Shown here: positions 2,531 to 53,882 of the stretch, one piece after another
Position numbering within the stretch: position 1 is the first letter of the stretch
Layout of the letters: each line of letters begins with the position of its first letter
Sequence record: NC_014792.1
Source of the DNA: Escherichia phage vB_EcoM_VR7
Length of the DNA: 64,000 nucleotides
Direction: 5' to 3' (one strand)
Notes under the pieces: generated by a model
What the model was told of the DNA's origin: nothing
Database searches by the model: none
Seen by the model: only the letters and a program-made list of their open reading frames with translations
Made by a program: the position numbers and the translations under genes

Positions 2531-3814
<1,284 letters not shown>

Positions 3815-31711: not shown

Positions 31712-31724
31712 CATAATATTTTCC

Positions 31725-31958: not shown

Positions 31959-32029
31959 GTTTTGGTCCTCATCAGTAGTTGATGGAACCATTATGTATAG
32001 AAAGAAGGGGCTTGTACACCCCTTTTTTA

Positions 32030-33579: not shown

Positions 33580-33581
33580 AA

Positions 33582-33598
33582 AGGGCCGAAGCCCTTTC
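33582..33598 (-). terminator. Hairpin terminator between nrdB and denA
   Basis: GGGCCGAAGCCC hairpin with T-run on the minus strand. Confidence 0.5.
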
Positions 33599-33599
33599 C

Positions 33600-34778
33600 T
33601 TATAGATATTTACGGAAACCAGCAAGAACATTCTCATCGACGTCATTGTCAATCTGGGCTACCAGGTAAGCGGACAACTCAACTTCTTGTGGCGCAGATT
33701 GCACATTATCAGAATTGAGATATTCGCGAATCCATGGAATCGGGTGCTTAGTAGATTCTAACACGATTTCACAAGGGAGACCGCATTGCTTCATACGAGA
33801 AACTGTCAGGTAATCGATGAACCGGTTAAGAATCTCGACGCTCAGCCCGGGGAGTCCACCATCTTTAAACAGATGCACAGCCCATTCTTTTTCCTGACGA
33901 TTGACTTCCATGAAAATAGCTGCGGCTTCTGCTTCACATTCGTGAGCAATTTTAACCCATTCGTCACCGTCAACACCAGTCTGCAGCTGACGAAGAATAT
34001 ATTGGGTTCCCTTAAGGTGGAGCTGCTCATCACGTGCGATGAACTTCATTATCTTCGCATTGCCTTCCATGATTTCCATGTTCTTATGGAAGTTGAAAGT
34101 ACAAGCAAAAGATACATAAAAACGAATTGCTTCCAGGGCGTTAATGACATGCAGGCAGAGATAAAGAGATTTCATCAATGCTCGTTTGGCAATAGCTTCT
34201 TGTTTGATAGCTCGTTCCAAACGTTGGTCCACTTCGGGAGTTTCTTTGGCCAGTTCAACAAAAGCAATCTGGTTTTGCCATTGACGAGTTTTATTCAGAA
34301 CATCATCATAGTAATAGCCAATTGATTCGGCTCGCTTCATGATTGCATCATCTAACAGGATTTCGTCGAATACCTTCGCCGGGTCTGTATAGAGATTTCG
34401 CATGATGTGTGTATAAGAACGAGAGTGAATTGTCTCGCTGAATGTCCAGGTCTGAATCCATGTATCAAGACTCGGGTCAGAAACTAATGCGGCTAATGCT
34501 GCAGCCGGAGCACGACCCTGGATACTGTCCAGAAGTGATTGGTACTTCAGGTTATTGGTAAAAATATTTTGTTGATGTTCAGGAAGCTTATTAAATTGAG
34601 CTCCGTCCATCATCAGGTTTACTTCCTCGGGCCGCCAGAAGAATGACAATTGCTTTTCTGTTAATTCTTCAAAAACTTTATGACGCTGGATATCATAACG
34701 GGCGATGCCCAATCCTGAACCAAAAAACATCGGCTCGGCTAAAACATCCACCGGAGTGGTATTAAAAACTGTACTCAT
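33600..34778 (-). CDS. nrdB: ribonucleotide reductase small subunit (uninterrupted, no intron)
   Basis: 392 aa continuous ORF; strong match to class Ia R2 and T4 NrdB. Confidence 0.95.
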   Translation of the reverse strand: MSTVFNTTPVDVLAEPMFFGSGLGIARYDIQRHKVFEELTEKQLSFFWRPEEVNLMMDGAQFNKLPEHQQNIFTNNLKYQSLLDSIQGRAPAAALAALVSDPSLDTWIQTWTFSETIHSRSYTHIMRNLYTDPAKVFDEILLDDAIMKRAESIGYYYDDVLNKTRQWQNQIAFVELAKETPEVDQRLERAIKQEAIAKRALMKSLYLCLHVINALEAIRFYVSFACTFNFHKNMEIMEGNAKIMKFIARDEQLHLKGTQYILRQLQTGVDGDEWVKIAHECEAEAAAIFMEVNRQEKEWAVHLFKDGGLPGLSVEILNRFIDYLTVSRMKQCGLPCEIVLESTKHPIPWIREYLNSDNVQSAPQEVELSAYLVAQIDNDVDENVLAGFRKYL

Positions 34779-34816
34779 TTTATTTCCTCAATAGCTCATC
34801 CATGAGCATAATTATA

Positions 34817-37072: not shown

Positions 37073-37203
37073 GTTTTCCTCTGTTATAAAATGGGGTCAT
37101 GCTTATACTAACACATGACCCCTGGAGCGGAATCGTATTTATAGAAGGAAGTTAAGTCCGACCATTACGACCAAAAATAAAATGCCAGCAATTTGAATTT
37201 TCA

Positions 37204-38862
<1,659 letters not shown>

Positions 38863-38866
<4 letters not shown>

Positions 38867-39204
38867 TTTAATTCCTTAACTGCCTTTTTAATGGCAGTAA
38901 AATCTTTGCGAATATCGAGAACCAATTTGTAAAGATGTTTAATTGTATCTGTATCAAAATATGATACCGCGCAACGTGATTGGCGAATATCTTCTAATGA
39001 ATATTTGCTTTCGCTTGTGCCATATCCAATGATACCACTAATGCACTTGTCATTAAGCGTATACTTCTGGGGGACATCAATAATATTTTTAGGATAGATG
39101 TAAAGGCTCCAATCAAATTTTTGTTCAAGCGTATTAACCTTAACTTCAAGAACCAGTTCAGGATGCGCATCATCTTTAGCAAAACAAGTGTATTCAACAA
39201 GCAT
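38863..39204 (-). CDS. hypothetical protein (frd.2 position)
   Basis: About 113 aa from MLVEYTCF with GAGGAAAA RBS; the longer track ORF is rejected. Confidence 0.45.
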
Positions 39205-39214
39205 TATATTTTCC

Positions 39215-39454
39215 TCACGCTTTCTTAGCGATTTTCCAGTCAGCTTTAAATTGGTCAACATCAGAGTGGTGAATCCAGAAACCAGATGAGCTACCATCTT
39301 CATAAAGAGGACAACCATCACACTCATCTTTCCAACCCATTGCACACAAAGTTTCTTCTGCTTTTTCCAGAGCTTCTGGATTGTTACCTTGGATTGTGAA
39401 GTACCATTTGCCTTTAACTTCTGAATCTTTGATGCTCTCACGTTTTAATTTCAT
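39215..39454 (-). CDS. hypothetical protein (frd.3 position)
   Basis: 79 aa; Cys/His-containing (CAMGWKDECDGCP). Confidence 0.45.
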   Translation of the reverse strand: MKLKRESIKDSEVKGKWYFTIQGNNPEALEKAEETLCAMGWKDECDGCPLYEDGSSSGFWIHHSDVDQFKADWKIAKKA

Positions 39455-39513
39455 TTTATTCTCCTCAAGTTGGTAAGGCTATAGTATCACTACCATAGCC
39501 CTGTTGTAAACAT

Positions 39514-39741
39514 TTATTTTTGAATTAAGCCCATATAAAATTCAGCATCTTCAACATGCATACCATCACAATACTCGTCAGTCATAAAACGAGTCAGGTC
39601 TTCAAGAGGGCCTTGAACTTCAATTTGGATACTAAAGAATTGAGTATCTTTTATGTAAGTCATACTCAAAGAAGGATAACGATTACGGATAACTTCGTAA
39701 GTGTATTCAAAATCAACAATATCAATATTAACTTTAGCCAT
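39514..39741 (-). CDS. hypothetical protein
   Basis: 75 aa; RBS and early promoter upstream. Confidence 0.45.
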
Positions 39742-39805
39742 TTTATTTTCCTCATGTAGTTGATAGGTCTATAGTATCTCAACCATAGACAGTGTACACT
39801 ACTTT

Positions 39806-40072
39806 TTAAATTTTATCAAGCCATTTGCCAAGTTTAGTCATTTCTTTAGTAGCTTTTTCTAGACTTCTGAACTTGACTAACAAAGGATAAGTATCTACAC
39901 CCATAACTAAAGTGGTTACAAGACTATGCTCGCCTACAAGCCATAGAGAATACGTTTGAACATCAAGTCCGTAATTTCGGTCTTTATGAACACGTACACC
40001 CATCACTTCAAACTGTTCGCTGGCTTTTTCTACTGCATCCAGGAAATCATCTTTAGTCATATTAAATTCCAA
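39806..40072 (-). CDS. hypothetical protein
   Basis: 88 aa ORF. Confidence 0.4.
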   Translation of the reverse strand: MEFNMTKDDFLDAVEKASEQFEVMGVRVHKDRNYGLDVQTYSLWLVGEHSLVTTLVMGVDTYPLLVKFRSLEKATKEMTKLGKWLDKI

Positions 40073-40433
40073 AGGTAGCTTTAATCAAGGCAATGACTTC
40101 CGCTGCATTTTTGTGATTAACCTGCACATGAATGGTTTGCGTGTCAACAACAGGAGCTGGAGCTTCATCCACTTCTAAGAAGTATTGGAATTCACCTTCA
40201 GCGAGCTCGAAATAGTATTCACCTTTCATGTCCATGGAAGTAAAGATTGTCCCGTCTTTCATTTCAATCATTTCAACAAAATACTCACCATAATAGCATC
40301 CCATATCCAGAACTTTAAAGGTGTCACCACACTCTGCCATCCGCTTAACCATAAGTGCATTATCATCTGGACAGTCAGCGATGAAACGTTTTTTAGCAGC
40401 GGGGTCTAATACGTAAGTTTTACCAGTTTCCAT
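40062..40433 (-). CDS. hypothetical protein
   Basis: 123 aa; RBS and early promoter upstream. Confidence 0.45.
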   Translation of the reverse strand: METGKTYVLDPAAKKRFIADCPDDNALMVKRMAECGDTFKVLDMGCYYGEYFVEMIEMKDGTIFTSMDMKGEYYFELAEGEFQYFLEVDEAPAPVVDTQTIHVQVNHKNAAEVIALIKATFGI

Positions 40434-40510
40434 TTTTATTTCCTCAGTTGTTATCAGCAGTTGATGGAATCATTATGCCTTAGCTCAAGGAGCTTGTACA
40501 CTACTTTTTG

Positions 40511-40540
40511 AAAATAAAAAAGGGACCCGAAGGTCCCCTT
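40511..40540 (-). terminator. Rho-independent terminator after gene 32
   Basis: GGGACCTTCGGGTCCC hairpin followed by TTTTTTATTTT on the minus strand. Confidence 0.7.
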
Positions 40541-40543
40541 ATA

Positions 40544-41455
40544 TTAAAGGCCAGCCAGAAGGTCGTCAAGACCATCATCAGAAGGCTCTGGAGTGCTTGG
40601 AGCAGTCGCAGTGCGTTCAGACTTAGCAGGTTTGTTGGAAGTGAAGTCTTCCATATCTTTATCAAAATCGTCCAGGTCAGCGCCCAGTTTATCAGCTTGT
40701 GCAGCAGCTTTAGAAGCAGCACCGCCGAGAGCAGCCGTACCCATTACTTTAGAGAATTTCTTCTGATTCTCTTCAAGGGATTTAAACACCAGCAATTCAT
40801 TCAGGTCAGACATTTCGTCCCAAAGTTTTTTCTGGAACGCTTCATCATTGATGCCAGCGATTTCAGACTGGTTCATGAATTTGGAATCATCGTAGTTTTT
40901 ATAACCGGAAACCATTTTAGATTTCAGTACGAAGTTCGCACCTTCAAAAGGACAAGTTACATCAATAGCTGTTTCGCCCATGTCAACATCGACTTCAACC
41001 ATCTGGTTGATTTTGTCCATGATTTTCTTACCGAAGCGGTATTTGAATACTTGACCTTCGTTAGACGGAACAGCAGGGTCTTTAATGACCAGGATGTTAG
41101 CCCAGTAAGAAGTATTACGCTTCAGTTTACGATATTCGGATTCGTTTGTATTGTACAGGTCATTCTTATTCATGTACGCACACACAGGACAGTTTTCATA
41201 GTCGCCGTGAGTAGAAGTACAGTTTTCAATATACCATTGACCAGCATTTTTAAAGCCGTGGTTAACCAACTTAATGAACGGAGATGGATTTTCTTCATTC
41301 TTAGAAGGCAGGAAACGAATAACCGCAGAGCCGACGCCATCAGTATCTTTCAGTTTCCATTCTTTTTTATCGTCAGAAGAGAAACCGGCACCACCTTTCA
41401 GAGCGTTCAGGGAAGCGGCGAGGTCAGCTGGGTTACGACGTTTAAACATAGACAT
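40544..41455 (-). CDS. 32: gp32 single-stranded DNA-binding protein
   Basis: 303 aa; strong match to T4 gp32 (AVIRFLPSK...HGFK..G.WYIE.C.STHGDY; acidic C-terminal tail). Confidence 0.95.
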
Positions 41456-41525
41456 AGTGATTTCCTTAGATTATTTGATTTTAACAGTTGTTTTGATTAC
41501 GTATTAATTATACTACTTTTTATTT
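41456..41525 (-). promoter_or_regulatory. gene 32 leader: middle-promoter-like element plus A/U-rich 5' UTR (probable gp32 translational operator)
   Basis: Minus strand reads GCGCTTTA, 12 nt, TATAAT, then an A/U-rich leader of about 45 nt before the ATG; operator function is inferred from T4 biology. Confidence 0.4.
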
Positions 41526-41636
41526 AAAGCGCATTTATCACGGTGACGTTTTAAATGATTTATAGATGTTTCATATCCACATAAATCACAAATGGCCCTT
41601 GGTAATTTTTTACCTTTAAACCCTTTGGGATGAATA

Positions 41637-42185
41637 TTATCTGGGTTTGAGTAACGGCGCTTTAGCAGAATCACTAAGAGTTTTTATCACTTCAATACCT
41701 CTGATATTATTTATTTTATCATCTTTTTCATAAAAGCGATTTAAGCCTTCAGAAATTGATTTCTTATGCTCCGTGCTTTTTGGAACATCCTTTTGTGCTT
41801 CCGAAATACATTGATTTGTGTATATGGAATTTTTCATTCCATATCTTGGTGCGCGTTCACCGGCACCACCAAATGCACCATGAGCTGTTGCTTTATTAAA
41901 GAATAGCGGTGATTTTGGTATATTATAATGAGAGTGGTACCACTCTTCCTCGTCCAAAACATCTTCACAGACATCGAGTATTTTAACTGTCGGCTTTTCG
42001 AGTTGAATAGCTTCAAGAAAATCAGCTTGCTCACATGAGGACCAATATTCTCTTCTTGAAGTATATTTCAAATCAATTATAACACCATTTTCAAAAGCGC
42101 AATTATGCTTTGACCCAATGTAAAAATAAGGAGGTGTTTTATTTTTCAGACGAGTTTCAAATGTAAACCAATATACAACATTCAA
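41637..42185 (-). CDS. segG: GIY-YIG homing endonuclease (SegG-like)
   Basis: 182 aa; N-terminal VVYWFTFETRL...PYFYIGSK GIY-YIG-like motif; sits between genes 32 and 59 like T4 segG. Confidence 0.55.
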   Translation of the reverse strand: MNVVYWFTFETRLKNKTPPYFYIGSKHNCAFENGVIIDLKYTSRREYWSSCEQADFLEAIQLEKPTVKILDVCEDVLDEEEWYHSHYNIPKSPLFFNKATAHGAFGGAGERAPRYGMKNSIYTNQCISEAQKDVPKSTEHKKSISEGLNRFYEKDDKINNIRGIEVIKTLSDSAKAPLLKPR

Positions 42186-42835
42186 AACTTACACCCTTTA
42201 ACAGTCTCGATGAACAATTTACGAGCTTCAAGAGCATCTATATTTAAGATTTTCTTATAAGCATTTAGTTTGGTTGAATACTTATCCCAAACCAAATCGT
42301 TAGTCTGTTCATCATGTTTATTTATTATATGCAAAAATGAGTCAAGCAAACAAAACGTTTCAAATGAGATAACATTCGATTGGAGAAGTTTGAAAATATA
42401 ACTTGTGTTCACTTTAGTATTATACTCAAAAATCTCTTGAAGCGATTTGACTTCACTTTTCTTACTAAAGTAATAGATGTTCTTTATATCATCTTCGTAT
42501 ACTTGTTTAATTCTTTTAAGTCTGCCGATGTATTCCCTATAAAATATCAGAGCATCGGCATCACTTATATCACCTATCCATGCATCCTGGTTCGCGACCA
42601 GGTTTGACATGAATATTAACGTTAATTCTTTGAGAGTGTACTTATCGCTAAGCTTTTCGAAAAAATACTTGTCACGACGTTTTTGATAAGCACTATCGGA
42701 GATTCGCATGGTCCAGTTATATTTGATAATATCATAACGACCCGAAAAATGCTGTTTGATGGATAAGTACAGTTGATATACTGATTTACCATTTATGTAT
42801 CGGTTGTTATTTGGAGGCATGCGAATCGTAATCAT
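42182..42835 (-). CDS. 59: gp59 helicase loader
   Basis: 217 aa; near-identical to T4 gp59 (YNWTMRISDSAYQKRRDKYFFEKLS...ANQDAWIGDISDADALIFYREYIGRLK). Confidence 0.9.
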   Translation of the reverse strand: MITIRMPPNNNRYINGKSVYQLYLSIKQHFSGRYDIIKYNWTMRISDSAYQKRRDKYFFEKLSDKYTLKELTLIFMSNLVANQDAWIGDISDADALIFYREYIGRLKRIKQVYEDDIKNIYYFSKKSEVKSLQEIFEYNTKVNTSYIFKLLQSNVISFETFCLLDSFLHIINKHDEQTNDLVWDKYSTKLNAYKKILNIDALEARKLFIETVKGCKF

Positions 42836-43125
42836 AACAAAAAGTCCAGCGTATTAGTTTTCTGTGTACGAGACATACTTGGACGAAGCAGGTTATCATC
42901 ATATGCTTCGTTCATAATCTTATCAATGATTCCTGCCGGGATATATCGAGCAAAATTACCCTCAGGAACACCACGTTCTTCTAACCAGGCAGTCGTAGCT
43001 TCCAGATAAGACATTTCAGTTGACTCAACCATGGCTTCAATATCAAGCCCGTTTTGCTGTTTACTAATCGCCCCGGAAGGCGATTCAGTTTTCTGTGTAT
43101 CAAAATTAACTAAAGAGGACATCAT
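42832..43125 (-). CDS. 33: gp33 late transcription co-activator
   Basis: C-terminal two-thirds matches T4 gp33 (MSYLEATTAWLEE...NLLRPS...KTNTLDFLL); start is uncertain (43122/43125 or 43152) and overlaps the dsbA 3' end. Confidence 0.75.
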   Translation of the reverse strand: MMSSLVNFDTQKTESPSGAISKQQNGLDIEAMVESTEMSYLEATTAWLEERGVPEGNFARYIPAGIIDKIMNEAYDDNLLRPSMSRTQKTNTLDFLL

Positions 43126-43375
43126 AGAGCTCCACAGCTTCGGTTTTTTCATCTTCAAAACGCTCACGAGTACCTTTATGATACAGGCCGAGCTGTGTAT
43201 TGAACATCTTACCGTCAACACCTAATTCAGTTTTTGCCTTATCTTTAAGGTCTTTAATTTCGTCTGCATATGCTTCCATTTTTAATTTAGTATCGGAAGC
43301 AGCTTTAATCAGCTTGGCCAGTTCAGCACCGTGAGTATCAGGACAAAATTCAACTTTCACTTTTTTCTCTTTCAT
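43106..43375 (-). CDS. dsbA: DsbA double-stranded DNA-binding protein (late transcription)
   Basis: 89 aa; T4 dsbA position between rnh and 33. Confidence 0.65.
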   Translation of the reverse strand: MKEKKVKVEFCPDTHGAELAKLIKAASDTKLKMEAYADEIKDLKDKAKTELGVDGKMFNTQLGLYHKGTRERFEDEKTEAVELYDVLFS

Positions 43376-43383
43376 AATATACC

Positions 43384-44328
43384 TTAATAAAATTCAGCAA
43401 TATTTGCAGTTAGTTTAGACAGACCAGACTTAACAAAGTAAGGATAAACTTTACTTTTGGCTGGGATAGTGTAGTTATTATATCGTTCTAAGATTGAAGC
43501 GGATATTTCCGTTGGGATAAAGTCCATATCAATCAACAATTGGTTTTCACAGAATCTATTATATTGCTCTTCTGTTAAAAGCGTTTTCAGGACGTCATGG
43601 TCGTAATAGTTGAGCGCAATTTGTTCAAGCTCAGCAGCACGGGTCGGTGGAGTACGTTCACCTTCTTCGTGAGTGTAATAAAAATCACCACGAACTTTGA
43701 TGCTTGACACGTTATCTTTTTTGTCGCCTTTAACAACTTTTGTTACGCAATCCATAAGGGCATCGCCAGATTTTGTTTTTACATATTTTTTCTGCATCGG
43801 GGACCATTGTTTTACCCCAGGGAATTTATGCAACTGGGTAAAGTCACCATCCGAAGAAACAATCATAACCGGATGTCCGAGACCGGTGAGCAACTTCGTT
43901 AATACTGCAATATGGTCGTCTGCCTCAACTTTATCCATATTCATCACGATGTAAGGCATGTATTTTTCCATTTCATCAATGATGATGTGCATGGCAGCAT
44001 GTAGACCTTCCCAATCGAATTGAGACTCTTCACGAGCTTTCGCACGGTTTTTCTTATAATAATAAGATTTCGTCCGGCGCCAATAACCATTCTTCGAGTT
44101 ATCAACACAAATAATTGGAATCGTATAACCGAGCTTCTTGAACTGCACAATATTTTTTCTGATGGAGTTCAGAACCAGGTGGCGGGTCATTGCGGTTGTT
44201 ACCTTTGGATAACCAGCGTCTTTGCCGAATTCCTGGAATGCCGCAGCCATGATTAGCTGACTAAAATCGAGTAACTGAAAACCTTCTTTTTGACGGTCTT
44301 CTTCAGGGAGTAAAAAATCTAAATTCAT
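43384..44328 (-). CDS. rnh: RNase H (5'-3' exonuclease, FEN-like)
   Basis: 314 aa; strong match to T4 RNase H (YMPYIVM..DK.EADDHIAVL, SSDGDFTQLHK.P.VKQWSPM.KK). Confidence 0.9.
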   Translation of the reverse strand: MNLDFLLPEEDRQKEGFQLLDFSQLIMAAAFQEFGKDAGYPKVTTAMTRHLVLNSIRKNIVQFKKLGYTIPIICVDNSKNGYWRRTKSYYYKKNRAKAREESQFDWEGLHAAMHIIIDEMEKYMPYIVMNMDKVEADDHIAVLTKLLTGLGHPVMIVSSDGDFTQLHKFPGVKQWSPMQKKYVKTKSGDALMDCVTKVVKGDKKDNVSSIKVRGDFYYTHEEGERTPPTRAAELEQIALNYYDHDVLKTLLTEEQYNRFCENQLLIDMDFIPTEISASILERYNNYTIPAKSKVYPYFVKSGLSKLTANIAEFY

Positions 44329-44357
44329 ATGAACCTCTGTTCAATTAGTTGACTCGA

Positions 44358-44386
44358 TTATATTAGCATAAAATTTTTAAAGCAAT
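44358..44386 (-). promoter_or_regulatory. MotA-dependent middle promoter for rnh
   Basis: Minus strand reads TGCTTTA, 12 nt, TAATAT; GAGG RBS before the rnh ATG. Confidence 0.5.
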
Positions 44387-44393
44387 ATAAATA
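44386..44393 (+). promoter_or_regulatory. Late promoter (TATAAATA) for gene 34
   Basis: Exact TATAAATA 30 nt before the gene 34 ATG; divergent from the rnh promoter. Confidence 0.65.
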
Positions 44394-44423
44394 CACGTAT
44401 ACCAATCAATAAGGATAAAGCAC

Positions 44424-47400
44424 ATGGCCGATATTTTAAAACCAGCATTCAGAGCAACATCCGGTCTCGATGCTGCTGGTGAGAAAGTCATTAATGTCGC
44501 TAAAGCTGATTACTCAGTTTTGTCAGACGGCGTGAACGTAAACTTCTTTATAGAAGAAAACACAATTCAACAATATGATGCAACACGCGGATATAAGAAA
44601 GATTTTGCAGTTATTTATGATAACCGTATTTGGGTTTCCCAACGCGAAATCGCAGAACCAGCAGGCTCATTTGTTCAGCAATATTGGACTGCAACCCGTA
44701 CTGACCCGAAATGGGAAACTGTTGCATCACCGACTCGTCAGCTTAATTCCGGGGAATTTATCGCGGTCGACTCAGCTGCAAGCTTTACCACATTTACATT
44801 GCCTCCGAACCCGACTGATGGTGATACCATCGTTATTAAAGATATCGGCGGCAATACCGGTTATAATGAAATCAAAGTTCAATCTAGCAATGTGCCGGGG
44901 CAAGGTAACCAAAAAATTGTTCGTTTTGGTAATCAGTATTCAGAAGTTTTAATTACCAAACCGTTCTCTTATAACATGCTTATTTTCTCCAACCGTTTAT
45001 GGCAGTTCTGGGAAGCAGGGAACGAAGAACGTGGAATAAGAATTGAACCAAGCTCTGGTAAATATCGTGCTCAGGCTGCAGACTTTATTATGCGCCGCTA
45101 CACGACTGCAGAGAAGATTACATTTGTTCTTCCTAAGTATGCTAACCAAGGTGATATTGTCAAATCGGTAGATATAGATGGATTAGGGCCATTATATCAC
45201 CTGGATGTTGAAACGTTTGACGAGTCAAGCTCTCTGGGTAAACAGGGACAGCACAGTATGGAATTCCGTACAACTGGTGATGGCTTCTTCGTTTATAATG
45301 CCACTGAAAAACTGTGGGTGACTTGGGATGGTGATAACAAAACTCGCCTGCGTGTAATCCGTGACAGTGTGAAATTGCTGCCAAACGAAAGCATTATCGT
45401 ATTTGGTAATGATAACAGCACTCCACAGACAATTAACATCGACCTTCCAACGGGTGTTCGTCCTGGGGACGTAGTTAAGATTGCTCTGAACTATCTTCGC
45501 AAGGCACAGACTGTTAATATTAAGGCCACCGCGCTTGATAAAATCGCGTCTTCTGTTCAGCTGCTTCAGTTCCCGAAACGTTCGGAATATCCACCTGACA
45601 CTGAATGGGTATTGGTTGACTCTTTGACTTTCAATGGCAACATAAGTTATACGCCGGTTATCGAATTAAGTTATCTTGAAGATACGGTTAAGAACATTAA
45701 CTATTGGGTTGTTGCACAAAACGTTCCGACTGTTGAGCGTGTTGACTCAAAAGATGATTTGACCCGAGCTCGTCTGGGTGTTATTGCACTGGCTAACCAG
45801 GCTCAGGTTAACGTTGACCATGAAAATAACCCTGAAAAAGAATTAGCAATTACCCCGCAAACTTTAGCTAACCGTGTGGCTACTGAATCACGCCGCGGTA
45901 TTGCACGAATCGCTAACACAGCACAGGTTAACCAGGATACGACTTTTGCTTTCCAGGATGATATTATCGTTTCTCCGAAAAAGTTAAACGAACGTACAGC
46001 TACAGAAACAAGACGTGGGCTCGCAGAAATCGCCACACAGCAAGAAACTGATGCAGGTATAGATGATACCACAATCATCACTCCACGCAAGCTACAAGCT
46101 CGCCAGGGCTCCGAAAGCTTATCGGGTATTGTCAAGTATGTTCCTACTACTGGGACTACTCCAGCTGCAAGTCGTATAACTGTTGGGACTAACGTTTATA
46201 ATAAGAACACAACTAATTTAGTTATTTCTCCTAAAGCTTTAGACCAATATAAAGCTGACCAGAATAACCAAGGTGCTGTATATCTAGCAACTCAGTCAGA
46301 AGTTAACGCAGGGGCAACAAATACAGGATTCAGTAACTCGGCAGTAACTCCTGAAACATTAGGTGCTCGCAGAGCAACAGATTCAAACCACGGTTTAATC
46401 GAGATTGCAACTCAGGTTGAAACTAATGCCGGTACTGATTATACCAGAGCTGTAACTCCTAAAACGTTGAATGACCGTAAAGCAACAGAATCATTATCCG
46501 GCATAGCCGAGATTGCTACGCAATCAGAATTTGATACTGGAACTGATGATACTCGTATTGCAACGCCATTAAAAATTAAAACTAGATTTAATAATACTGC
46601 TCGTACTTCTGTTATTGCAGCAAGTGGTTTAGTAGAAACAGGGACGCTCTGGGACCATTATACGCTGAATATTCTTGAAGCAAATGAGACTCAACGTGGC
46701 ACCGCAAGACTGGCTACTCAGTTGGAAGTAAACACGGGTACTGACGATAAAACAATCGTTACTCCGCTTAAGTTGATGTCGAAAAAAGCTACAGAAGGCA
46801 CCGAAGGTATTGTTCGCATCGCTACTCGCGCAGAAACCATCGCAGGAACAAGTTCAGTTCTGGCTGTTTCTCCGGTAAGTCTGAAATGGATTGTACAGTC
46901 CGAACCAACATGGGCAGCAACCACGACGACACGCGGCTTTGTTAAGATGTCTGAAGGCGCAATTACTTTTGTCGGTAATGCAACCGCAGGTTCCACTCAG
47001 GCTCTTGACCTGTACGAGAAAAATAGCTATGCTATTTCGCCATACGAGTTAAACAAAACCCTTGGTAACTTCCTGCCGCGTTTGGCAAAAGCGGTAGACT
47101 CTGATAAATTGGACAACCTGGACAGTACGCAGTTCGTTCGTCGTGATGTAGCCCAGGATATTAACGCTGCTATGACATTTAAACAGCCTGTAAGAATTGA
47201 AAGTACTTTAACCGTTACAGGTGTGGTTAATTTGAGTGGTTCTATTACTTCAAATAATACTACATTAACCGGTTCTACTACAATCAATAGCAATTCTACA
47301 GTAGGTGCTCTGAATTACATTGAGTTTACTTCAGAATCTCAAGGCTCCGGTACTTGGAACTCCCAACATGATAGTAATGTTAAAGCTCCTGTATTTTTAA

Positions 47401-48299
47401 ATATAACTACTCCGGTAGGCTCATCTAGATATGTTCCTTTAATTAAGCAACGTTATAAAGATGGGACATTTACCTTTGGTACATTGATAAATGAACCCAC
47501 CTCAAATGATGAGGGTGCTTTTATTCTTCACTATATAGATGCGGTAAAACCCCAGCGCAAATGGACCTTTAGACGTAACGGCGATTTAGAAATAACTGCA
47601 GGTAATTTCGTTCTTGGTAATGGGTCTGCTATAATTAACGGGGGTCTTAGTGTTACTAAAGCTTCAGGTATCACAACCACCGGGCTAGTTGCTAATAGTG
47701 AATCTAGATTCGAAGGCGCTGTTACTATTAACAACTTCCTTACGGTAAGCAACAAAGCTACACTTAACAACGGCTTAGCTGTTCAGAAATATGCAAGGGT
47801 TGCAGGAGATAAGACTTCTGATATCTATAGTAGAAAACCTACAATGGATACCGCAGGTTTTTGGTCTGTTGACATTAATGATTCAGCCACATATAATCAG
47901 TTCCCGGGTTATTTCAAAATGGTTGAAAAGACCAACGAAGTAACTGGTCTGCCTTATTTGGAGCGTGGTGAAGAAGTTAAATCACCGGGTACATTAACTC
48001 AGTTTGGTAACACACTGAATTCACTCTATCAAGATTGGATTACTTATCCGAATACGACCACGGCAAGCACCACTCGCTGGACTCGTACATGGCAGCAGAA
48101 CAAAAATGCATGGTCTGGTTTTGTTCAGGTCTTTGATGGTGGTAACCCACCGCAGCCTTCGGATATCGGTGCATTGCCTGCTGATAACGCTTCGATGAGC
48201 AACCTGACTATCAGAGATTGGTTAAGAATCGGTAACGTACGTATTGTTCCGGACCCAGTAACTAAATCCGTTAAATTCGAATGGATTGATACACCATAA
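44424..48299 (+). CDS. 34: long tail fibre proximal subunit gp34
   Basis: 1291 aa; long stretches near-identical to T4 gp34 (SSVQLLQFPKRSEYPP, ATETRRGIARIA repeats, C-terminal FVQVFDGGNPPQPSDIGALP). Confidence 0.95.
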   Translation: MADILKPAFRATSGLDAAGEKVINVAKADYSVLSDGVNVNFFIEENTIQQYDATRGYKKDFAVIYDNRIWVSQREIAEPAGSFVQQYWTATRTDPKWETVASPTRQLNSGEFIAVDSAASFTTFTLPPNPTDGDTIVIKDIGGNTGYNEIKVQSSNVPGQGNQKIVRFGNQYSEVLITKPFSYNMLIFSNRLWQFWEAGNEERGIRIEPSSGKYRAQAADFIMRRYTTAEKITFVLPKYANQGDIVKSVDIDGLGPLYHLDVETFDESSSLGKQGQHSMEFRTTGDGFFVYNATEKLWVTWDGDNKTRLRVIRDSVKLLPNESIIVFGNDNSTPQTINIDLPTGVRPGDVVKIALNYLRKAQTVNIKATALDKIASSVQLLQFPKRSEYPPDTEWVLVDSLTFNGNISYTPVIELSYLEDTVKNINYWVVAQNVPTVERVDSKDDLTRARLGVIALANQAQVNVDHENNPEKELAITPQTLANRVATESRRGIARIANTAQVNQDTTFAFQDDIIVSPKKLNERTATETRRGLAEIATQQETDAGIDDTTIITPRKLQARQGSESLSGIVKYVPTTGTTPAASRITVGTNVYNKNTTNLVISPKALDQYKADQNNQGAVYLATQSEVNAGATNTGFSNSAVTPETLGARRATDSNHGLIEIATQVETNAGTDYTRAVTPKTLNDRKATESLSGIAEIATQSEFDTGTDDTRIATPLKIKTRFNNTARTSVIAASGLVETGTLWDHYTLNILEANETQRGTARLATQLEVNTGTDDKTIVTPLKLMSKKATEGTEGIVRIATRAETIAGTSSVLAVSPVSLKWIVQSEPTWAATTTTRGFVKMSEGAITFVGNATAGSTQALDLYEKNSYAISPYELNKTLGNFLPRLAKAVDSDKLDNLDSTQFVRRDVAQDINAAMTFKQPVRIESTLTVTGVVNLSGSITSNNTTLTGSTTINSNSTVGALNYIEFTSESQGSGTWNSQHDSNVKAPVFLNITTPVGSSRYVPLIKQRYKDGTFTFGTLINEPTSNDEGAFILHYIDAVKPQRKWTFRRNGDLEITAGNFVLGNGSAIINGGLSVTKASGITTTGLVANSESRFEGAVTINNFLTVSNKATLNNGLAVQKYARVAGDKTSDIYSRKPTMDTAGFWSVDINDSATYNQFPGYFKMVEKTNEVTGLPYLERGEEVKSPGTLTQFGNTLNSLYQDWITYPNTTTASTTRWTRTWQQNKNAWSGFVQVFDGGNPPQPSDIGALPADNASMSNLTIRDWLRIGNVRIVPDPVTKSVKFEWIDTP

Positions 48300-48307
48300 G
48301 AGGTATT

Positions 48308-49444
48308 ATGGAAAAATTTATGGCTGAATTTGGACAGGGATATGTCCAGGTTCCCGTGCTTTCTGAAAATAACGCAGTAAGATATAAATTGTCGATTGCA
48401 GGGACTTGTACTAAATCGCCAAACTATCCCTACGTTAAGTTTCAAGATGAGGCCTTCGGGCCTCAGAACTTCCAGAATGGATTAAACCTTATTGAAATCG
48501 ACCCGGTAACAAATACAATTACAGCAACCAAAAACTATGGTTTCACAAAGGATTATGATGTAATTTCACAAGCTTTTGTGACTTACATTAATTCAATCCC
48601 GGCTGGTAGAATTGTTTGTTTGATATCACAGGGTAAATTAAATGCATCACAGACTTTAATAAATTGGTTTCGTACCCATGGTTCGACTGCATTCCCAGAT
48701 AAGTGGTTAATCGACCAGGTTGACACATCTTATGCAGCCTTTTATATCTCAGGTCGAAATGCAATCGTTAAAGAACATGTGCTGTATAATGATGGGGTAA
48801 CTGTTGAGGATGTATTGACTCCATTGGAAATGGTGTACGACGACTTTGCTGATGTGGGTGGCACAGGCTTCCCTGTACGAGTCGTGGAAGACGAAAATAC
48901 ATATTACAATAATGTTACACAAGAAATAAAACGCTTCCCCACAGACGACCCTATCACTCCTGTGGCCGCATATAATATGGCTCCTGGTGATACATTTTAT
49001 CTGAAGTTTCAATTGACATATGACCAGGCCCTTAAAGACCTTGGGACAACTCAAATGTCTGTACGATTCTTTACTGGTCAGACAATGATTCAGTCAAATG
49101 ATTATGATATCCCGGCGACTGGTCAGGCAAGTCCGCCAGCTGGTGCATGGATGACGTTTGAACGTTATGTAGTTGTTCCACCGAATGCTGATGGATTTAC
49201 ATTATATGCAAGGAAGACTGTAACCGCAGGTCAGGGTGGAGTAAGGAATATTTTCTTCACAGAAATAGCGAGACAAGAAACTCAAGCCAAATCTGCTGAA
49301 ATCGGTGTCAACGGTATAAGAATGGTTGTTGCCGGAGAACCAGGTAATATGGGTAATGTCATTGCACAATTGAATGATAAAAATGCAACAAGGTCCAGTC
49401 AAGCTGGATTCGTATTTGCGGCTGAATTCAGAGAAAAACAATAA
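48308..49444 (+). CDS. 35: long tail fibre hinge protein gp35
   Basis: 378 aa; T4 gp35 position and size. Confidence 0.75.
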   Translation: MEKFMAEFGQGYVQVPVLSENNAVRYKLSIAGTCTKSPNYPYVKFQDEAFGPQNFQNGLNLIEIDPVTNTITATKNYGFTKDYDVISQAFVTYINSIPAGRIVCLISQGKLNASQTLINWFRTHGSTAFPDKWLIDQVDTSYAAFYISGRNAIVKEHVLYNDGVTVEDVLTPLEMVYDDFADVGGTGFPVRVVEDENTYYNNVTQEIKRFPTDDPITPVAAYNMAPGDTFYLKFQLTYDQALKDLGTTQMSVRFFTGQTMIQSNDYDIPATGQASPPAGAWMTFERYVVVPPNADGFTLYARKTVTAGQGGVRNIFFTEIARQETQAKSAEIGVNGIRMVVAGEPGNMGNVIAQLNDKNATRSSQAGFVFAAEFREKQ

Positions 49445-49467
49445 GGGCCTTCGGGTCCTTTTTTCGT
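49445..49467 (+). terminator. Hairpin terminator after gene 35
   Basis: GGGCCTTCGGGTCC hairpin followed by TTTTTT. Confidence 0.55.
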
Positions 49468-49475
49468 TATAAATA
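49468..49475 (+). promoter_or_regulatory. Late promoter (TATAAATA) for genes 36-37-38
   Basis: Exact TATAAATA 25 nt before the gene 36 ATG. Confidence 0.65.
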
Positions 49476-49500
49476 CTCCTATCTAATAAGGGGAACTAAT

Positions 49501-50160
49501 ATGGCCGATTTAAGAGTAGGCTCAACGACTGGCGGGTCAGTAATATGGCACCAGGGTAATTTTCCGTTGACGCCGGTTAGCAACGATGTTTTTTACAAAA
49601 CATACAAAGTATACACAGAATTCAATAAACCACAAGCAGCAGATAACGACTTTGTTTCTAAAGCAGCAGGTGGGACATATCTGAACACTGTAGGGTTTGA
49701 TAAAGATTTACAGTTTAAAGACACCGATGGGTATTGGGTTAAATTAGGACGTAAAGTAAACAACTCCCCAATGTCTGCTACATATTCTTTCTCTTTTAGA
49801 ATGAGTAAAGGAATGGGCCTTGAGACATCTGATGGTACTCCGTTTGTAATTTTTGACCCGACTACTGTTGTAGGTGCAAACCGTCTTACTGTAATGGGCG
49901 ATATCCTTGGTCGTCAAATTAAAGACGAATCAGGTCGAGTGTTTTCTCCAGGGAATACTCCGTCAAAAGCACAAGTTGGCTTGAGTGATGTGGATAACGC
50001 CAAACAGGTCCAAATAAATAATAGTAACATACAATCAATGGCTGGTGTTCTTTCAGCCCCAAATTTTATATCTAGGAACCCAGGTACGTTGAACGAACAC
50101 GTTCCTCGTATTGACCAGGTTGTTCTTAGAGGTACATACGAAGATTTTGGATATTATTAA
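49501..50160 (+). CDS. 36: long tail fibre distal connector gp36
   Basis: 219 aa; N- and C-termini match T4 gp36 ([22 protein letters not shown]; C-terminal DFGYY). Confidence 0.9.
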
Positions 50161-50168
50161 GAGGCAAT

Positions 50169-53100
50169 ATGGCTACTTTAAAAGCGATACAATTTAAAAG
50201 AAGTAAGACAGCTGGTGCCAAGCCTACTGTAGACCAGTTGGTTGAAGGTGAACTGGCTATTAACTTACGCGACCGTACTATTTTTACCAAGTCTGACCAG
50301 AACCAGATTATTGACCTTGGTTTTGCTAAAGGTGGTCAGGTTGACGGCAACGTTACTATTAACGGACTTTTGACCCTTAATGGCGATTACACCCAAACTG
50401 GTGGGATGCAAGTAACTGGTGATATTTACTCTGGTGCAGGCGTTAGCGCCTTAGTTTATCGAGCAAGAAATGGCTCTTTTTATTCAAGAGCATCAAATGA
50501 GACGTCTAACGCCCACATGTGGTTTGAAAATGCAAATGGTTCTGAACGTGGTGTTTTATATGCCAAACCACAGCTTGAAAATGAAGGTACTATTACCATG
50601 CGAGTTAAGCAGGGTACAGCAGCAGGTGCCGGCAATATAGAATTCCATTTTATTTCTTCAGGTGGTGGTATTTTTCAGGCCCCTATTTTAAAGGCTACGA
50701 CATCTATCACCACTCCTACTATTACGGTTAACCTGGTCAATCATGATTTCAAAGCGTTTGGTCAATACGACAGTCAGTCTTTAGTTAACTATGTTTATCC
50801 TGGAACCGGCGAAACGAATGGTGTAAACTATCTTCGTAAAGTTCGCGCTAAGTCCGGTGGCACTATGTGGCATGAGCTTTGTACTGCTCAATTAGGCCAA
50901 GCTGATGAAATTTCTTGGTGGACAGGTAATACTCCACAGTCAAAACAGTATGGTATTCGTAACGACGGACGAATGGCCGGCCGTAATAGCCTTGCATTAG
51001 GTACATTCACTGAAGGTTTCCCATCTAGTGATTATGGTAGCTTCGGTGCAATGGGCGATAAGTATCTTGTTCTCGGTGACATTGCAACTGGTCTGAAATA
51101 TATCAAACAAGGTAATTTTGATTTAGTTGGCGGCGGATATTCTGTTGCGTCAATTACCACAGACGGGTTCCGTGGCACAAGTAAAACCTTATTTGGCCGT
51201 AGTAATGACCAAGGTTTAACATGGCTTCTTCCCGGCCAAAACTCCTCAATGGTTTCAATTCGTACAGAAATTGATGGTAATAACTCCGGTGACGGACAAA
51301 CCCACCTTGGTTATAACAGTAATGGTAAACTTTATCACTATTTTCGTGGTACAGGTCGTGTAGCTATTTCAATGGCTGAGGGGCTTATTGTTGAGCCAGG
51401 AATTTTAGATATTAAAACCGGTTCCAATGGCGTTGCTATTAGAGCGGACGGAACAGTATCTTCAATACAAAGAATTAAATTTGATAACGGATTAGTTCTT
51501 ACTGGTGCTAGACCCGACGGTATTCAACTTGACGCTCCTACAGCAGCAGATGGCACTAAAACTATACTGTGGGCTGGTGGTACTCGCACAGGTCAGAATA
51601 AAAGTTATGTATCTATTAAAGCGTGGGGTAATTCATTTAATGCCACTGGTGATAAATCTCGTGAATCTGTTTTCGAGGTTGCTGATGGTAACGGTTATTA
51701 TTTTTATGCTCAACGCGTAGCTCCTACTGGTGTTGAAACGGTTGGTCCTGTGGTTATGCAATTAGCGGGTAGTTTATTGGCCCGTGGTACATTAAACACT
51801 GATAGCAATCTTTATGTGAAAGGATTGAGTACACATGAAGGTGCTGTGACCATGAATAATGGTCTTCGCTTAGTCGGTGGTTCTTCTATTACCGGCCAAG
51901 TTAAAATCGGCGGAACTGCTAATGCATTAAGAATTTGGAATGCCGAATACGGTGCTATTTTCCGTCGTTCTGAAAGTAACTTTTATATTGTTCCAACCAA
52001 TCAAAATGAAGGCGAAAGTGGAGACATTCACAGCTCTTTAAGACCAGTGAGAATAGGATTAAGCGATGGTGCAGTTGGGTTAGGAAGAGATTCTTTTATA
52101 GTAGATCAAAATAATGCTTTAACTACGATAAACAGTAACTCTCGCATTAATGCTAACTTTAGAATGCAATTAGGACAATCCGCTTATATTGATGCTGAAT
52201 GTACTAACACAGTTAGCCCGGCTGGTGCAGGGACTTTTGCTTCACAAAATAATGAAAACGTTCGTGCTCCATTCTATATGAATATTAATCGTACAGATAC
52301 AAGTACTTACGTTCCTATTTTGAAACAACGATATGTCCAAGGAAACAGTTGTTATTCTCTGGGAACTCTACTTAACGGCGGTAACTTCAGAGTTCATTAT
52401 CATGAAGGCGGCGACAATGATTCAACAGGCCCTTTAGTTAAATACTATGGGTGGGAATTCAATAGAACAGGCGATTTTATTTCCCCTGGTAAATTAGGTG
52501 CTGGTGCGGTTCGTATTGGTACTGACGGTAATATTACAGGTGGTTCTGGCAACTTTGCTAACTTGAACAGTACAATCGAATCGCTTAAAATCGATATTGT
52601 ATCAAGCTATCCAATTGGTGCCCCTATTCCATGGCCAACAGATACTCCTCCTGCTGGTTATGCTTTAATGACGGGTCAAACCTTTGATACCGGAGCTTAT
52701 CCTAAACTGGCTGTTGCGTATCCTAGTGGGGTTATTCCGGATATGCGTGGACAAACTATCAAAGGTAAACCAAGTGGTCGAGCTGTGTTGAGTGCGGAAG
52801 CTGATGGTATTAAGTCTCACAACCATGGCGGCTCTGTTGCGAGTACTGATTTAGGTACTAAGACCACCTCATCATTTGATTATGGTACTAAGACCACCTC
52901 ATCATTTGATTATGGTACTAAAACCAGTAACACAACAGGTAACCATAACCATAGCGTTAGTGGTACTACTAGCTCGGCTGGTGCTCATACCCATACACTT
53001 ACATTTCATAATGGCGCTTCCAGCGGTGGTTCTGTGGTCGGTGCAAGTCCTTCCGATTATACGGCAAAAACTACAACTACTAGTTCAGCCGGTGCTCATA

Positions 53101-53309
53101 CTCATACTTGGTCAGGTACTACCAACACTACCGGTAACCATGCCCACACCGTTGGTATTGGTGCTCATAGCCATTCGGTCGGCATTGGTGCTCATACGCA
53201 CACAGTAGCAATCGGGTCCCACGGTCATGGTCTTACCATAAATAGTACAGGTAATACAGAAAACACGGTTAAAAACATTGCTTTTAACTATATCGTTCGT
53301 TTAGCATAA
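50169..53309 (+). CDS. 37: long tail fibre distal subunit gp37 (receptor-binding tip)
   Basis: 1046 aa; N-terminal, central and C-terminal blocks near-identical to T4 gp37, including His-box motifs ([21 protein letters not shown]) and terminal [11 protein letters not shown]. Confidence 0.95.
52854..52913 (+). repeat. Perfect 30 bp tandem duplication in the gp37 tip region (encodes [10 protein letters not shown] twice)
   Basis: ggtactaagaccacctcatcatttgattat occurs twice back to back, followed by a degenerate partial copy. Confidence 0.85.
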
Positions 53310-53336
53310 GGAGAGGGGCTTCGGCCCCTTCTGAAT

Positions 53337-53882
53337 ATGAAAATTTATCACTTTTATTTTGACACAAAAGAATTTTACAAAGAAGAAAATTATAAACCCA
53401 TTAAAGGTCTTGGTCTTCCTGCTCATTCAACAATTAAAAAACCTTTAGAACCTAAAGAAGGTTTCGCTGTTATATTTGATGAACGCACTCAAGACTGGAT
53501 TTATGAAGAAGACCATCGAGGCAAACGTGCATGGACTTTTAATAAAGAAGAAATCTTAATAAATGACATAGGAAGTCCGATTGGTATAACTTTCGATAAA
53601 CCTGGTGAGTTTGATATATGGACAGATGATGGCTGGAAAGAAGACGAAACATATAAACGAGTAATGATTCGTAATCGGAAAATCGAGGGGTTTTATAAAG
53701 AATTCCAGGTATTAAGTAATATGGTTGAAGCCTCTGTTGCTGATAAGAAAGAAAAATTCTATCACCAGAATCTTAAACGTTTCTTTGCTCTTTTAGAAAA
53801 ACACGAACACTTAGGTGGTGAATTTCCGGCTTGGCCAGAGAAAGAGAAAAAATCCTTTTTCAAAAGATTGTTTAAAAAATAA
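53337..53882 (+). CDS. 38: gp38 tail fibre assembly chaperone (T4-type)
   Basis: 181 aa; near-identical to T4 gp38 (MKIYH.YFDTKEFYKEENYKP.KGLGLPAHSTIKKPLEPKEG). Confidence 0.9.
   Translation: MKIYHFYFDTKEFYKEENYKPIKGLGLPAHSTIKKPLEPKEGFAVIFDERTQDWIYEEDHRGKRAWTFNKEEILINDIGSPIGITFDKPGEFDIWTDDGWKEDETYKRVMIRNRKIEGFYKEFQVLSNMVEASVADKKEKFYHQNLKRFFALLEKHEHLGGEFPAWPEKEKKSFFKRLFKK

What the first reader, a model, noticed from the sequence alone, without database searches (positions are those of the whole stretch)
52800..53309. Repeat expansion in the gp37 receptor-binding tip
The tip region has a perfect 30 bp tandem duplication ([10 protein letters not shown] twice) and an apparent extra copy of the His-box unit (VGIGAHSHS before [17 protein letters not shown]) compared with T4 gp37 as I recall it. 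The His boxes are known in T4 gp37 to coordinate metal ions in the needle domain, and this region sets host range, so repeat changes here are likely to matter functionally.
Basis: partly seen in the sequence, partly recalled or inferred. Interest (0 to 1): 0.5.

Follow-up and report, generated by a model that had tools for sequence, protein, structure and literature searches.

The report
Long-stem tail-fibre tip, paired repeats
The two "extra" repeats in this phage's tail-fibre tip are real, but they are the two matching halves of one extra layer in a hairpin-shaped needle, a longer-needle version that most relatives (and phage lambda) already have, so phage T4 is the short exception rather than this phage being an unusual expansion.

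Summary
ORF 50169-53309 is a T4-type gp37. It carries a perfect 30-bp tandem duplication (52854-52913, [10 protein letters not shown] twice). Compared with T4 gp37 (PDB 2XGF) it has exactly two insertions: 10 aa on the outgoing strand of the needle and one 9-aa VGIGAHxH unit on the returning strand. That gives 8 HxH motifs against T4's 7.

The two changes are not independent. In 250 complete homologous tips, the His-free outgoing linker (22/32/42/52/73 aa) always matches the number of 9-aa returning units (1/2/3/4/6). One further tip, seen only in the earlier parse, is 62/5. The 14-aa modules on the two strands are always equal in number as well.

The 8-HxH form is common. It occurs in 13 of 15 sampled T-even gp37 tips, in lambda Stf, and in many prophage fibres. 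T4 is the short form.

The stem here is closest to phage ESCO10, whose repeat pair is also perfect but differs by the same 2 nt in both copies. This indicates concerted evolution, not a fresh expansion. The receptor-binding head (52995-53078), not the repeats, is the unique part of this allele. Any functional effect of needle length is untested.

Verdict: an ordinary member of a known family. The strict pairing rule is a tidy by-product.

The parts
50169..53309 (+). Gene 37-like ORF (1046 aa), the distal long-tail-fibre subunit with a T4-type adhesin tip.
   Evidence: ORF list and translation. Gene order is gp34-gp35-gp36-gp37-gp38-t. Last 269 aa match 2XGF at E = 1e-100.
52617..52760 (+). Collar (knob) domain, aa 817-864.
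   Evidence: Pfam PF07484 Collar, E = 2.7e-10, 40.5 bits against a cutoff of 24.
52815..52994 (+). Outgoing (ascending) strand of the needle stem, aa 883-942, 60 aa against 50 in T4. Contains HxH 1-3 (nt 52818-52826, 52944-52952, 52986-52994).
   Evidence: Mapped from the published T4 boundaries 882-931 through the alignment.
52854..52883 (+). [10 protein letters not shown] unit, copy 1 (aa 896-905).
52884..52913 (+). [10 protein letters not shown] unit, copy 2 (aa 906-915). Identical to copy 1 at 30/30 nt. This is the 10-aa insertion relative to T4.
52914..52943 (+). Diverged third unit [10 protein letters not shown], leading into HxH 2.
52995..53078 (+). Head (tip) subdomain, aa 943-970, the presumed receptor-binding surface. 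It is a unique allele.
   Evidence: Equivalent to T4 932-959. No DNA match in the phage or E. coli genome collections. It is a singleton at 60% identity among 76 head clusters. The nearest relative is a prophage Stf head at about half the self-score.
53079..53255 (+). Returning (descending) strand of the needle stem, aa 971-1029, 59 aa against 50 in T4. Contains HxH 4-8 (nt 53097-53105, 53139-53147, 53166-53174, 53193-53201, 53220-53228).
   Evidence: T4 boundaries 960-1009.
53139..53228 (+). Array of four HxH motifs at 9-aa spacing: [33 protein letters not shown]4 has three; one unit is the 9-aa insertion.
53256..53309 (+). Conserved C-terminal segment returning into the knob ([17 protein letters not shown]), plus the stop codon.
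   Evidence: 100% identical to VR25 and ESCO10 over 53240-53299. Invariant in the alignment.
53314..53329 (+). Intergenic stem-loop with a UUCG loop, lying between GGAG (53310-53313) and the gene 38 ATG (53337).
   Evidence: Fold of -15.8 kcal/mol, z = -2.3. Conserved in T4, VR25, ESCO10 and PhiZZ6.
53337..53882 (+). Gene 38-like tail-fibre assembly chaperone (181 aa), T4 type.
   Evidence: phrog_105 'tail fiber assembly', E = 1e-42. Same position as gp38 in T4, VR25 and PhiZZ6.

Best explanation
The region encodes a T4-type gp37 receptor-binding tip of the long-stem class. In this fold each chain runs out from the collar along a thin needle, forms the small head, and runs back. The needle is therefore a six-stranded bundle whose HxH pairs from three chains hold metal ions on the axis.

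The needle is built from paired modules. Each 10-aa GTKxxSxFDY unit on the outgoing strand lies level with one 9-aa xVxIGxHxH unit on the returning strand. The window has one more such pair than T4, which predicts:
- an eighth metal site;
- a needle longer by very roughly 2-3 nm.

This long form was inherited with an ESCO10-like stem allele; it was not created in this phage. The perfect identity of the two 30-bp copies reflects repeated homogenisation of the adjacent copies, by gene conversion or by slippage/unequal exchange, which is frequent in T-even phages.

Shown here:
- the repeats and both insertions;
- the strict pairing rule across homologues;
- the sharing of the long form by relatives;
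- the concerted pattern of substitutions.

Inferred:
- the eighth metal site;
- the added length;
- the molecular route of homogenisation;
- any effect on adsorption.
For: (1) Two insertions only relative to 2XGF/T4.

(2) Topology. The chain doubles back at the head, giving a six-strand needle with 7 HxH motifs in T4. The stem is 882-931 plus 960-1009 and the tip is 932-959. The published contact G921-F970 fits the antiparallel register i+j = 1891. That register puts T4's FDY unit 895-904 opposite 987-996, [10 protein letters not shown].

(3) Pairing rule. In 250 complete tips the linker length and number of 9-aa spacings pair as follows:
- 22/1 (2 tips)
- 32/2 (127)
- 41 or 42/3 (104)
- 52/4 (11)
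- 73/6 (1)
- 62/5 in one further tip, seen only in the earlier parse
The 5 apparent exceptions resolve on inspection: a His-to-Asn change, an extra HxH inside the linker, no HxH before the head, and 12-aa modules. The 14-aa modules on the outgoing and returning strands number (0,0) in 108 tips, (1,1) in 139 and (2,2) in 3, with nothing off the diagonal.

(4) The rule is not just shared ancestry. Six head types each occur on two or three stem classes. PhiZZ6 and PhiZZ23 are nearly identical from the repeat to the stop codon, apart from a 30-bp indel and a 27-bp indel.

(5) The long form is shared by VR25, phage 212, Ozark, ECCR664, F2, mar005P1, TU01, phi25-307, PhiZZ6, ESCO10, 04086, TuIa and lambda orf-314.

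(6) Both stem halves of the window are ESCO10-like: 93-97% on the outgoing strand and 88-92% on the returning strand.

(7) Perfect 30/30 pairs occur in the window, ESCO10 and VR25 with three different sequences. The window and ESCO10 differ by the same 2 nt in both copies. Other alleles show 22-27/30.
Against: - No trimer structure or metal analysis exists for this protein. The single-chain AlphaFold model was of low confidence (pLDDT 64, pTM 0.24) and shows only a hairpin around the head.
- The axial register rests on published domain boundaries plus one published contact, not on coordinates.
- Units of 10 and 9 residues do not match exactly, and the reason is unexplained.
- The homologue set is related by descent and was chosen by similarity to the window, so counts are not independent samples.
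- The homogenisation route cannot be resolved (conversion versus loss and re-duplication).
- Nothing here tests whether needle length changes host range.
Confidence: 0.8

Rival explanations
1. A recent expansion specific to this lineage. A T4-like 7-HxH ancestor gained a 30-bp duplication and a His-box duplication in this phage, changing host range.
For: The 30-bp copies are perfectly identical, which on its face suggests a recent event. T4 has one copy fewer of each unit. The title of Tetart et al. 1996 (cited) shows that duplications in this gene can widen T4 host range.
Against: The nearest stem allele (ESCO10, 93-97%) already has two copies and four arrayed HxH motifs, as do 12 other T-even tips and lambda. 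The returning-strand units share only 20/27 nt, so they are old. Perfect pairs with different sequences in three phages point to homogenisation rather than new duplications.
Confidence: 0.07
2. A compensatory duplication. Recombination joined a short-class outgoing strand and head to a long-class returning strand. A new 30-bp duplication then restored the register.
For: Gene 37 is mosaic relative to the closest genome, VR25. The nearest head relatives in prophages are all short class. The outgoing copies are perfect while the returning copies are diverged.
Against: Both stem halves are ESCO10-like, and ESCO10 itself has the two-copy form with a perfect pair. The register was therefore never broken in the stem allele now present.
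Confidence: 0.06
3. Assembly or sequencing artefact: the true genome has one FDY copy.
For: Perfect short tandem repeats are a classic place for errors. The exact 48-60-bp sequence was not found in the IMG/VR or metagenome collections.
Against: A 60-bp repeat lies well within a single read. The reading frame is intact. With one copy, the protein would pair a 32-aa linker with three 9-aa spacings, a combination seen in 0 of 250 tips. ESCO10 and VR25, assembled independently, have the same structure.
Confidence: 0.02
4. The two repeat families vary independently and the match in numbers is due to shared ancestry only.
For: Many of the 250 sequences are close relatives, so raw counts overstate independence.
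Against: Six head types each occur on several stem classes, always matched. The PhiZZ6/PhiZZ23 pair differs by both indels in an otherwise near-identical background. Six length classes are seen in total (five in the 250-tip table plus 62/5 in the earlier parse) with no off-diagonal case.
Confidence: 0.03

Closest known systems
Phage T4 gp37 receptor-binding tip (PDB 2XGF; collar, needle/stem, head; seven HxH iron sites)
   Same: Same domain order and same conserved collar and C-terminus (E = 1e-100). Same HxH motif type. Same 14-aa modules flanking a 28-aa head. Same neighbouring gp38 chaperone gene and intergenic hairpin.
   Different: One extra stem layer: +10 aa outgoing and +9 aa returning, giving 8 HxH against 7. 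The head sequence is unrelated in detail ([28 protein letters not shown] against [28 protein letters not shown]). The gp37 rod is only about 77% identical in DNA over 80% of its length.
gp37 of Escherichia phage vB_EcoM_ESCO10 (Dhakavirus, OM386655)
   Same: Nearest stem allele: [10 protein letters not shown]..., a two-copy perfect FDY pair, four arrayed HxH motifs and a GLTINS ending. DNA identity is 93-97% (outgoing) and 88-92% (returning).
   Different: Head of a different type and length (56-aa HxH-to-HxH gap against 37). Its FDY units read GTKNTSSFDY. The rod is unrelated upstream of about 52640.
gp37 of vB_EcoM_VR25 (Gaprivervirus), the closest genome overall
   Same: 97.6% identity across the 20 kb upstream and 96% into the first 180 nt of gene 37. 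About 95% from the end of gene 37 through gp38 and t. Same 8-HxH class with a perfect 30-bp pair.
   Different: Most of gene 37 is only 65-83% identical or unalignable. The head gap is 55 aa. The FDY codons differ.
Phage lambda side tail fibre Stf C-terminus (orf-314) and related E. coli/Shigella prophage tail fibres
   Same: Same collar-needle-head tip with identical module grammar. Lambda is also 42/3x9, i.e. 8 HxH. The nearest head relative of the window is a common prophage Stf head.
   Different: Different N-terminal fibre shafts and different virion context. Most of the prophage clusters nearest in head type are the short 32/2 class.
Laboratory T4 host-range mutants with duplications in gene 37 (Tetart et al. 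1996, J Mol Biol 258:726)
   Same: Tandem duplications within the same C-terminal adhesin region, bounded by conserved His-containing motifs. The title is confirmed in reference lists.
   Different: The paper could not be read here. From my recollection those duplications include the specificity segment itself and were selected in the laboratory. The repeats here are stem units in a natural allele. No functional link can be transferred.

Membership tests
T4-type gp37 adhesin tip (collar-needle-head, as in PDB 2XGF) | Sequence homology across the whole tip, including the conserved C-terminus ...[15 protein letters not shown] | tested here: met
   phmmer against 2XGF, E = 1.1e-100, covering query 10-269 and chain 2-242.
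T4-type gp37 adhesin tip (collar-needle-head, as in PDB 2XGF) | Phage tail collar domain preceding the needle | tested here: met
   Pfam PF07484 at aa 817-864, above the gathering score.
T4-type gp37 adhesin tip (collar-needle-head, as in PDB 2XGF) | HxH motifs on both the outgoing and returning strands, flanking a short head insertion | tested here: met
   Three HxH motifs before and five after a 28-aa head. Spacings are 42, 14, 37, 14, 9, 9, 9 against T4's 32, 14, 37, 14, 9, 9.
T4-type gp37 adhesin tip (collar-needle-head, as in PDB 2XGF) | Adjacent T4-type gp38 assembly chaperone (not a T2-type gp38 adhesin) | tested here: met
   The 181-aa ORF at 53337-53882 matches phrog_105 'tail fiber assembly', E = 1e-42. 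It sits in the same position as in T4.
T4-type gp37 adhesin tip (collar-needle-head, as in PDB 2XGF) | Intertwined trimer with axial metal ions bound by the HxH pairs | not testable with these tools
   Only single-chain prediction was available, and it was of low confidence (pLDDT 64). Metal content needs experiment.
Long-stem (8-HxH) class of the tip | A 42-aa His-free linker with two FDY units, together with four HxH motifs at 9-aa spacing | tested here: met
   The window falls in the (42, 3) class with 101 other tips.
Gaprivervirus (genome backbone) | High nucleotide identity to type members outside the fibre tip | tested here: met
   97.6% identity over 93% of window 30000-50000 to VR25. 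Only this part of the window was compared, and ICTV thresholds for the whole genome were not tested.

The most novel reading that the evidence does not exclude
Needle length in T4/lambda-type fibre tips may be a quantised trait that switches often. It would be set by adding or removing matched 30-bp and 27-bp units on the two strands of the hairpin. The outgoing repeats would be kept near-identical, and so prone to recombination, by concerted evolution. Phages would then retune the reach of a given receptor-binding head, for example to a different LPS or capsule depth, without changing the head. The window, ESCO10, VR25 and the PhiZZ6/PhiZZ23 pair would be snapshots of this process. How two separate indels become fixed together, with no unmatched intermediates seen among 250 tips, would be the open mechanistic question.
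Probability: 0.25. Interest if true: 0.55.

Novelty: new member of a known kind. Interest (0 to 1): 0.3.

Why it matters
For this phage, the repeats say little about host range. The informative part is the unique head on a known long stem.

More generally, the strict one-to-one pairing of outgoing and returning units gives three practical rules:
- Engineering: chimeric gp37 or Stf tips should be joined so that unit numbers on both strands match.
- Quality control: an unmatched count flags a frameshift, a pseudogene or a misassembly.
- Experiment: it defines a simple test of whether needle length, as distinct from head sequence, affects adsorption.

It also corrects the habit of treating T4 as the default form. 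T4 is the short variant.

Tried and rejected
- Compensatory duplication after a register-breaking recombination. I raised this idea, when the returning strand appeared VR25-like. Fine-scale identity showed both stem halves are ESCO10-like, and ESCO10 already has the perfect pair. Rejected.
- Single-chain AlphaFold2 of the tip with a 38-sequence alignment. Low confidence (pLDDT 64, pTM 0.24). Not used for fold search and not used as evidence beyond a hairpin around the head.
- Independent copies of the exact allele. An exact 60-bp search of IMG/VR and an exact 48-bp search of metagenomes found nothing.
- Relatives of the head. Searches of the phage and E. coli genome collections returned alignments that stop at HxH 3, so there is no DNA relative of the head.
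- Primary papers. Bartual et al. 2010 and Tetart et al. 1996 are not held. Structural facts were taken from papers that describe them. The details of the Tetart duplications remain unverified.
- A literature search for 'His boxes' with 'tail fiber' found nothing in the held library.
Full report
WHAT IS THERE

The finding lies at the 3' end of a 1046-codon ORF (50169-53309, + strand). This ORF sits in the order gp34 (44424-48299), gp35, gp36, gp37, then a 181-aa ORF and a holin-sized ORF. The last 269 residues match the crystal-structure construct of the phage T4 long-tail-fibre tip (PDB 2XGF) at E = 1e-100. A Pfam tail-collar domain covers aa 817-864. The downstream ORF is a T4-type tail-fibre assembly protein (phrog_105, E = 1e-42). 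The surrounding genome is closest to the Gaprivervirus vB_EcoM_VR25, at 97.6% over window 30000-50000.

CHECK OF THE OBSERVATION

Tandem Repeats Finder reports a single array in the gene: 52847-52926, period 30, 2.7 copies. In frame, 52854-52883 and 52884-52913 are identical at 30 of 30 bases. Each encodes [11 protein letters not shown] diverged unit, [10 protein letters not shown], follows.

The HMMER alignment to 2XGF has exactly two gaps on the T4 side. One is 10 residues at the second [10 protein letters not shown]. The other is 9 residues at one VGIGAHxH unit. The T4 genome record gives the same result.

HxH motifs number eight here (aa 884, 926, 940, 977, 991, 1000, 1009, 1018) and seven in T4 (883, 915, 929, 966, 980, 989, 998).

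HOW THE TWO CHANGES RELATE

Papers that describe the T4 structure give the following picture:
- Each chain leaves the collar, runs to the head, doubles back and returns, so the needle has six strands.
- The stem consists of residues 882-931 and 960-1009, and the tip of 932-959.
- G921 contacts F970 of another subunit.

An antiparallel register in which residue numbers sum to 1891 (882+1009) reproduces that contact. It places T4's [10 protein letters not shown] (895-904) level with 987-996, [10 protein letters not shown]. So the His-free outgoing linker runs alongside the closely spaced HxH units of the returning strand.

In the window the outgoing stem is 60 residues (52815-52994) and the returning stem is 59 (53079-53255). 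Both are 50 in T4. The two "extra" repeats therefore look like the two halves of one added layer.

TEST ON HOMOLOGUES

I parsed tips from three sources:
- a word-indexed search (120 proteins);
- an exhaustive HMMER search of cluster representatives (150 proteins);
- 15 phage records.

In 250 complete tips, the distance from the first HxH to the next module always matched the number of 9-residue spacings at the C-terminal array:
- 22 with 1
- 32 with 2 (127 tips)
- 41 or 42 with 3 (104 tips)
- 52 with 4 (11 tips)
- 73 with 6

One further tip, seen only in the earlier parse, is 62 with 5.

Five sequences looked odd, and each resolved on inspection:
- a His-to-Asn change inside one motif;
- an additional HxH within the linker whose parts sum correctly;
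- two tips with no HxH before the head;
- one tip with 12-residue modules on both sides.

A second module, 14 residues long and next to the head, is also always present in equal numbers on the two strands: 0/0 in 108 tips, 1/1 in 139 and 2/2 in 3.

This is not only shared ancestry. Six head types each occur on two or three stem classes, always matched. The river isolates PhiZZ6 and PhiZZ23 differ by three substitutions from the repeat to the stop codon, plus a 30-bp indel and a 27-bp indel. The single PhiZZ23 returning unit is a clean hybrid of the two PhiZZ6 units.

IS THE LONG FORM UNUSUAL?

It is not. These phages all have the 42/3x9, eight-HxH form, many with the same [20 protein letters not shown] peptide: VR25, phage 212, Ozark, ECCR664, F2, mar005P1, TU01, phi25-307, PhiZZ6, ESCO10, 04086 and TuIa (the last sequenced decades ago). 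Lambda orf-314 (Stf) has it as well. Only T4 and PhiZZ23 in my sample are the short form. The sample was chosen by similarity to the window and so leans towards the long form. Among prophage fibres, the short and long forms are both abundant.

ORIGIN OF THE ALLELE

Against VR25, identity is 96% up to 50347. It then falls to 65-83% or nothing across most of gene 37, and recovers near the stop codon.

The stem is closest to the Dhakavirus ESCO10. Identity is 93-97% for 52760-52939 and 88-92% for 53120-53239. The two share unusual residues ([10 protein letters not shown]; HGHGLTINS).

The head (52995-53078) has no DNA relative in the phage or E. coli genome collections. It is a singleton among 76 head clusters. 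Its nearest protein relative is a common E. coli prophage Stf head. The allele is thus a known long stem carrying a new head, joined at the conserved His-containing flanks.

WHY THE 30-BP COPIES ARE PERFECT

Across alleles the two copies share 22 to 30 of 30 bases. Three phages have perfect pairs, each with a different sequence:
- the window (AAG ACC ACC TCA TCA);
- ESCO10 (AAA AAC ACC TCA TCA);
- VR25 (AAA ACC ACA TCA AGC).

The window and ESCO10 have stems only about 5% apart, yet they differ by the same two bases in both copies. That is the signature of concerted evolution: a change in one copy spreads to its neighbour, or one copy is lost and re-made.

The returning units in the window share only 20 of 27 bases. 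The copy number itself is therefore old. I first considered that the perfect pair was a fresh compensatory duplication after a recombination that mismatched the strands. One search removed the premise.

FUNCTION

Shown:
- the extra layer exists;
- it is matched on both strands;
- it adds one HxH motif.

Inferred:
- An eighth axial metal site.
- A needle longer by roughly 2-3 nm. This is scaled from a needle of about 15 nm or a tip of about 20 nm for 50 residues per strand.

A 2025 structural paper also suggested that the HxH number tracks needle length. Known T4 host-range and receptor-contact mutations lie in the head. I found no evidence that stem length changes specificity. The recurrence of one head on several stem lengths leaves open that length is tuned separately.

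WHAT REMAINS UNEXPLAINED

- Why the paired units are 10 and 9 residues long.
- How two separate indels about 280 bp apart become fixed together when no unmatched intermediates are seen.

LIMITS

- The primary structure paper and the 1996 duplication paper were not available.
- The single-chain structure prediction was poor.
- Reads could not be examined.

VERDICT

The interpretation as a notable expansion is only partly right. The feature is an ordinary member of the long-stem class of a well-known tip. Its by-product is a clear, testable pairing rule.

Noticed in passing
window 50169-53309 compared with L013 (VR25) and L014 (ESCO10): Gene 37 is a three-part mosaic. The first ~180 nt are 96% VR25-like. 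The rod is only 65-83% similar to VR25 and is best matched by T4-group phages at ~77%. The stem is ESCO10-like (88-97%). The head has no DNA relative. The last ~60 nt plus gene 38 are 92-100% identical to both.
   Followed up: partly
window 53310-53339: Between the gene 37 stop and the gene 38 ATG lies GGAG followed by a GC-rich stem-loop with a UUCG loop (53314-53329; -15.8 kcal/mol). It is conserved almost base for base in T4, VR25, ESCO10 and PhiZZ6. From memory, this resembles the known T4 gene 38 arrangement in which a hairpin brings a distant Shine-Dalgarno sequence close to the start codon. One record annotates the site as a terminator.
   Followed up: partly
L001 (PhiZZ6) 3240-3840 vs L007 (PhiZZ23) 540-1077: Two Citrobacter rodentium phages from the same study carry the same head on stems that differ by exactly one layer (a 30-bp and a 27-bp indel). 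Sequence divergence rises sharply just upstream of the FDY repeat, which suggests a recombination breakpoint at the repeat. This is a natural pair for testing the effect of needle length.
   Followed up: partly
proteins P0241 and P0253: A divergent tip family has a 22-aa linker with no FDY unit and only two arrayed HxH motifs. It carries extra 14-aa HGHHMDFWT-type modules in equal numbers on both strands. This extends the pairing rule to a different module sequence.
   Followed up: no
proteins P0001-P0003, P0009, P0024: Several 'Shigella' or 'E. coli' tail fibre proteins of 230-455 aa sit on contigs of 165-169 kb. These are probably T-even phage genomes within bacterial assemblies, with gene 37 called in fragments. 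All listed hits of that search were shorter than 470 aa.
   Followed up: no
L016 (X55190): The record for phage TuIa genes 37/38 is filed under the organism name Tequatrovirus T4. A hit labelled 'T4' can therefore carry the long 8-HxH form.
   Followed up: yes
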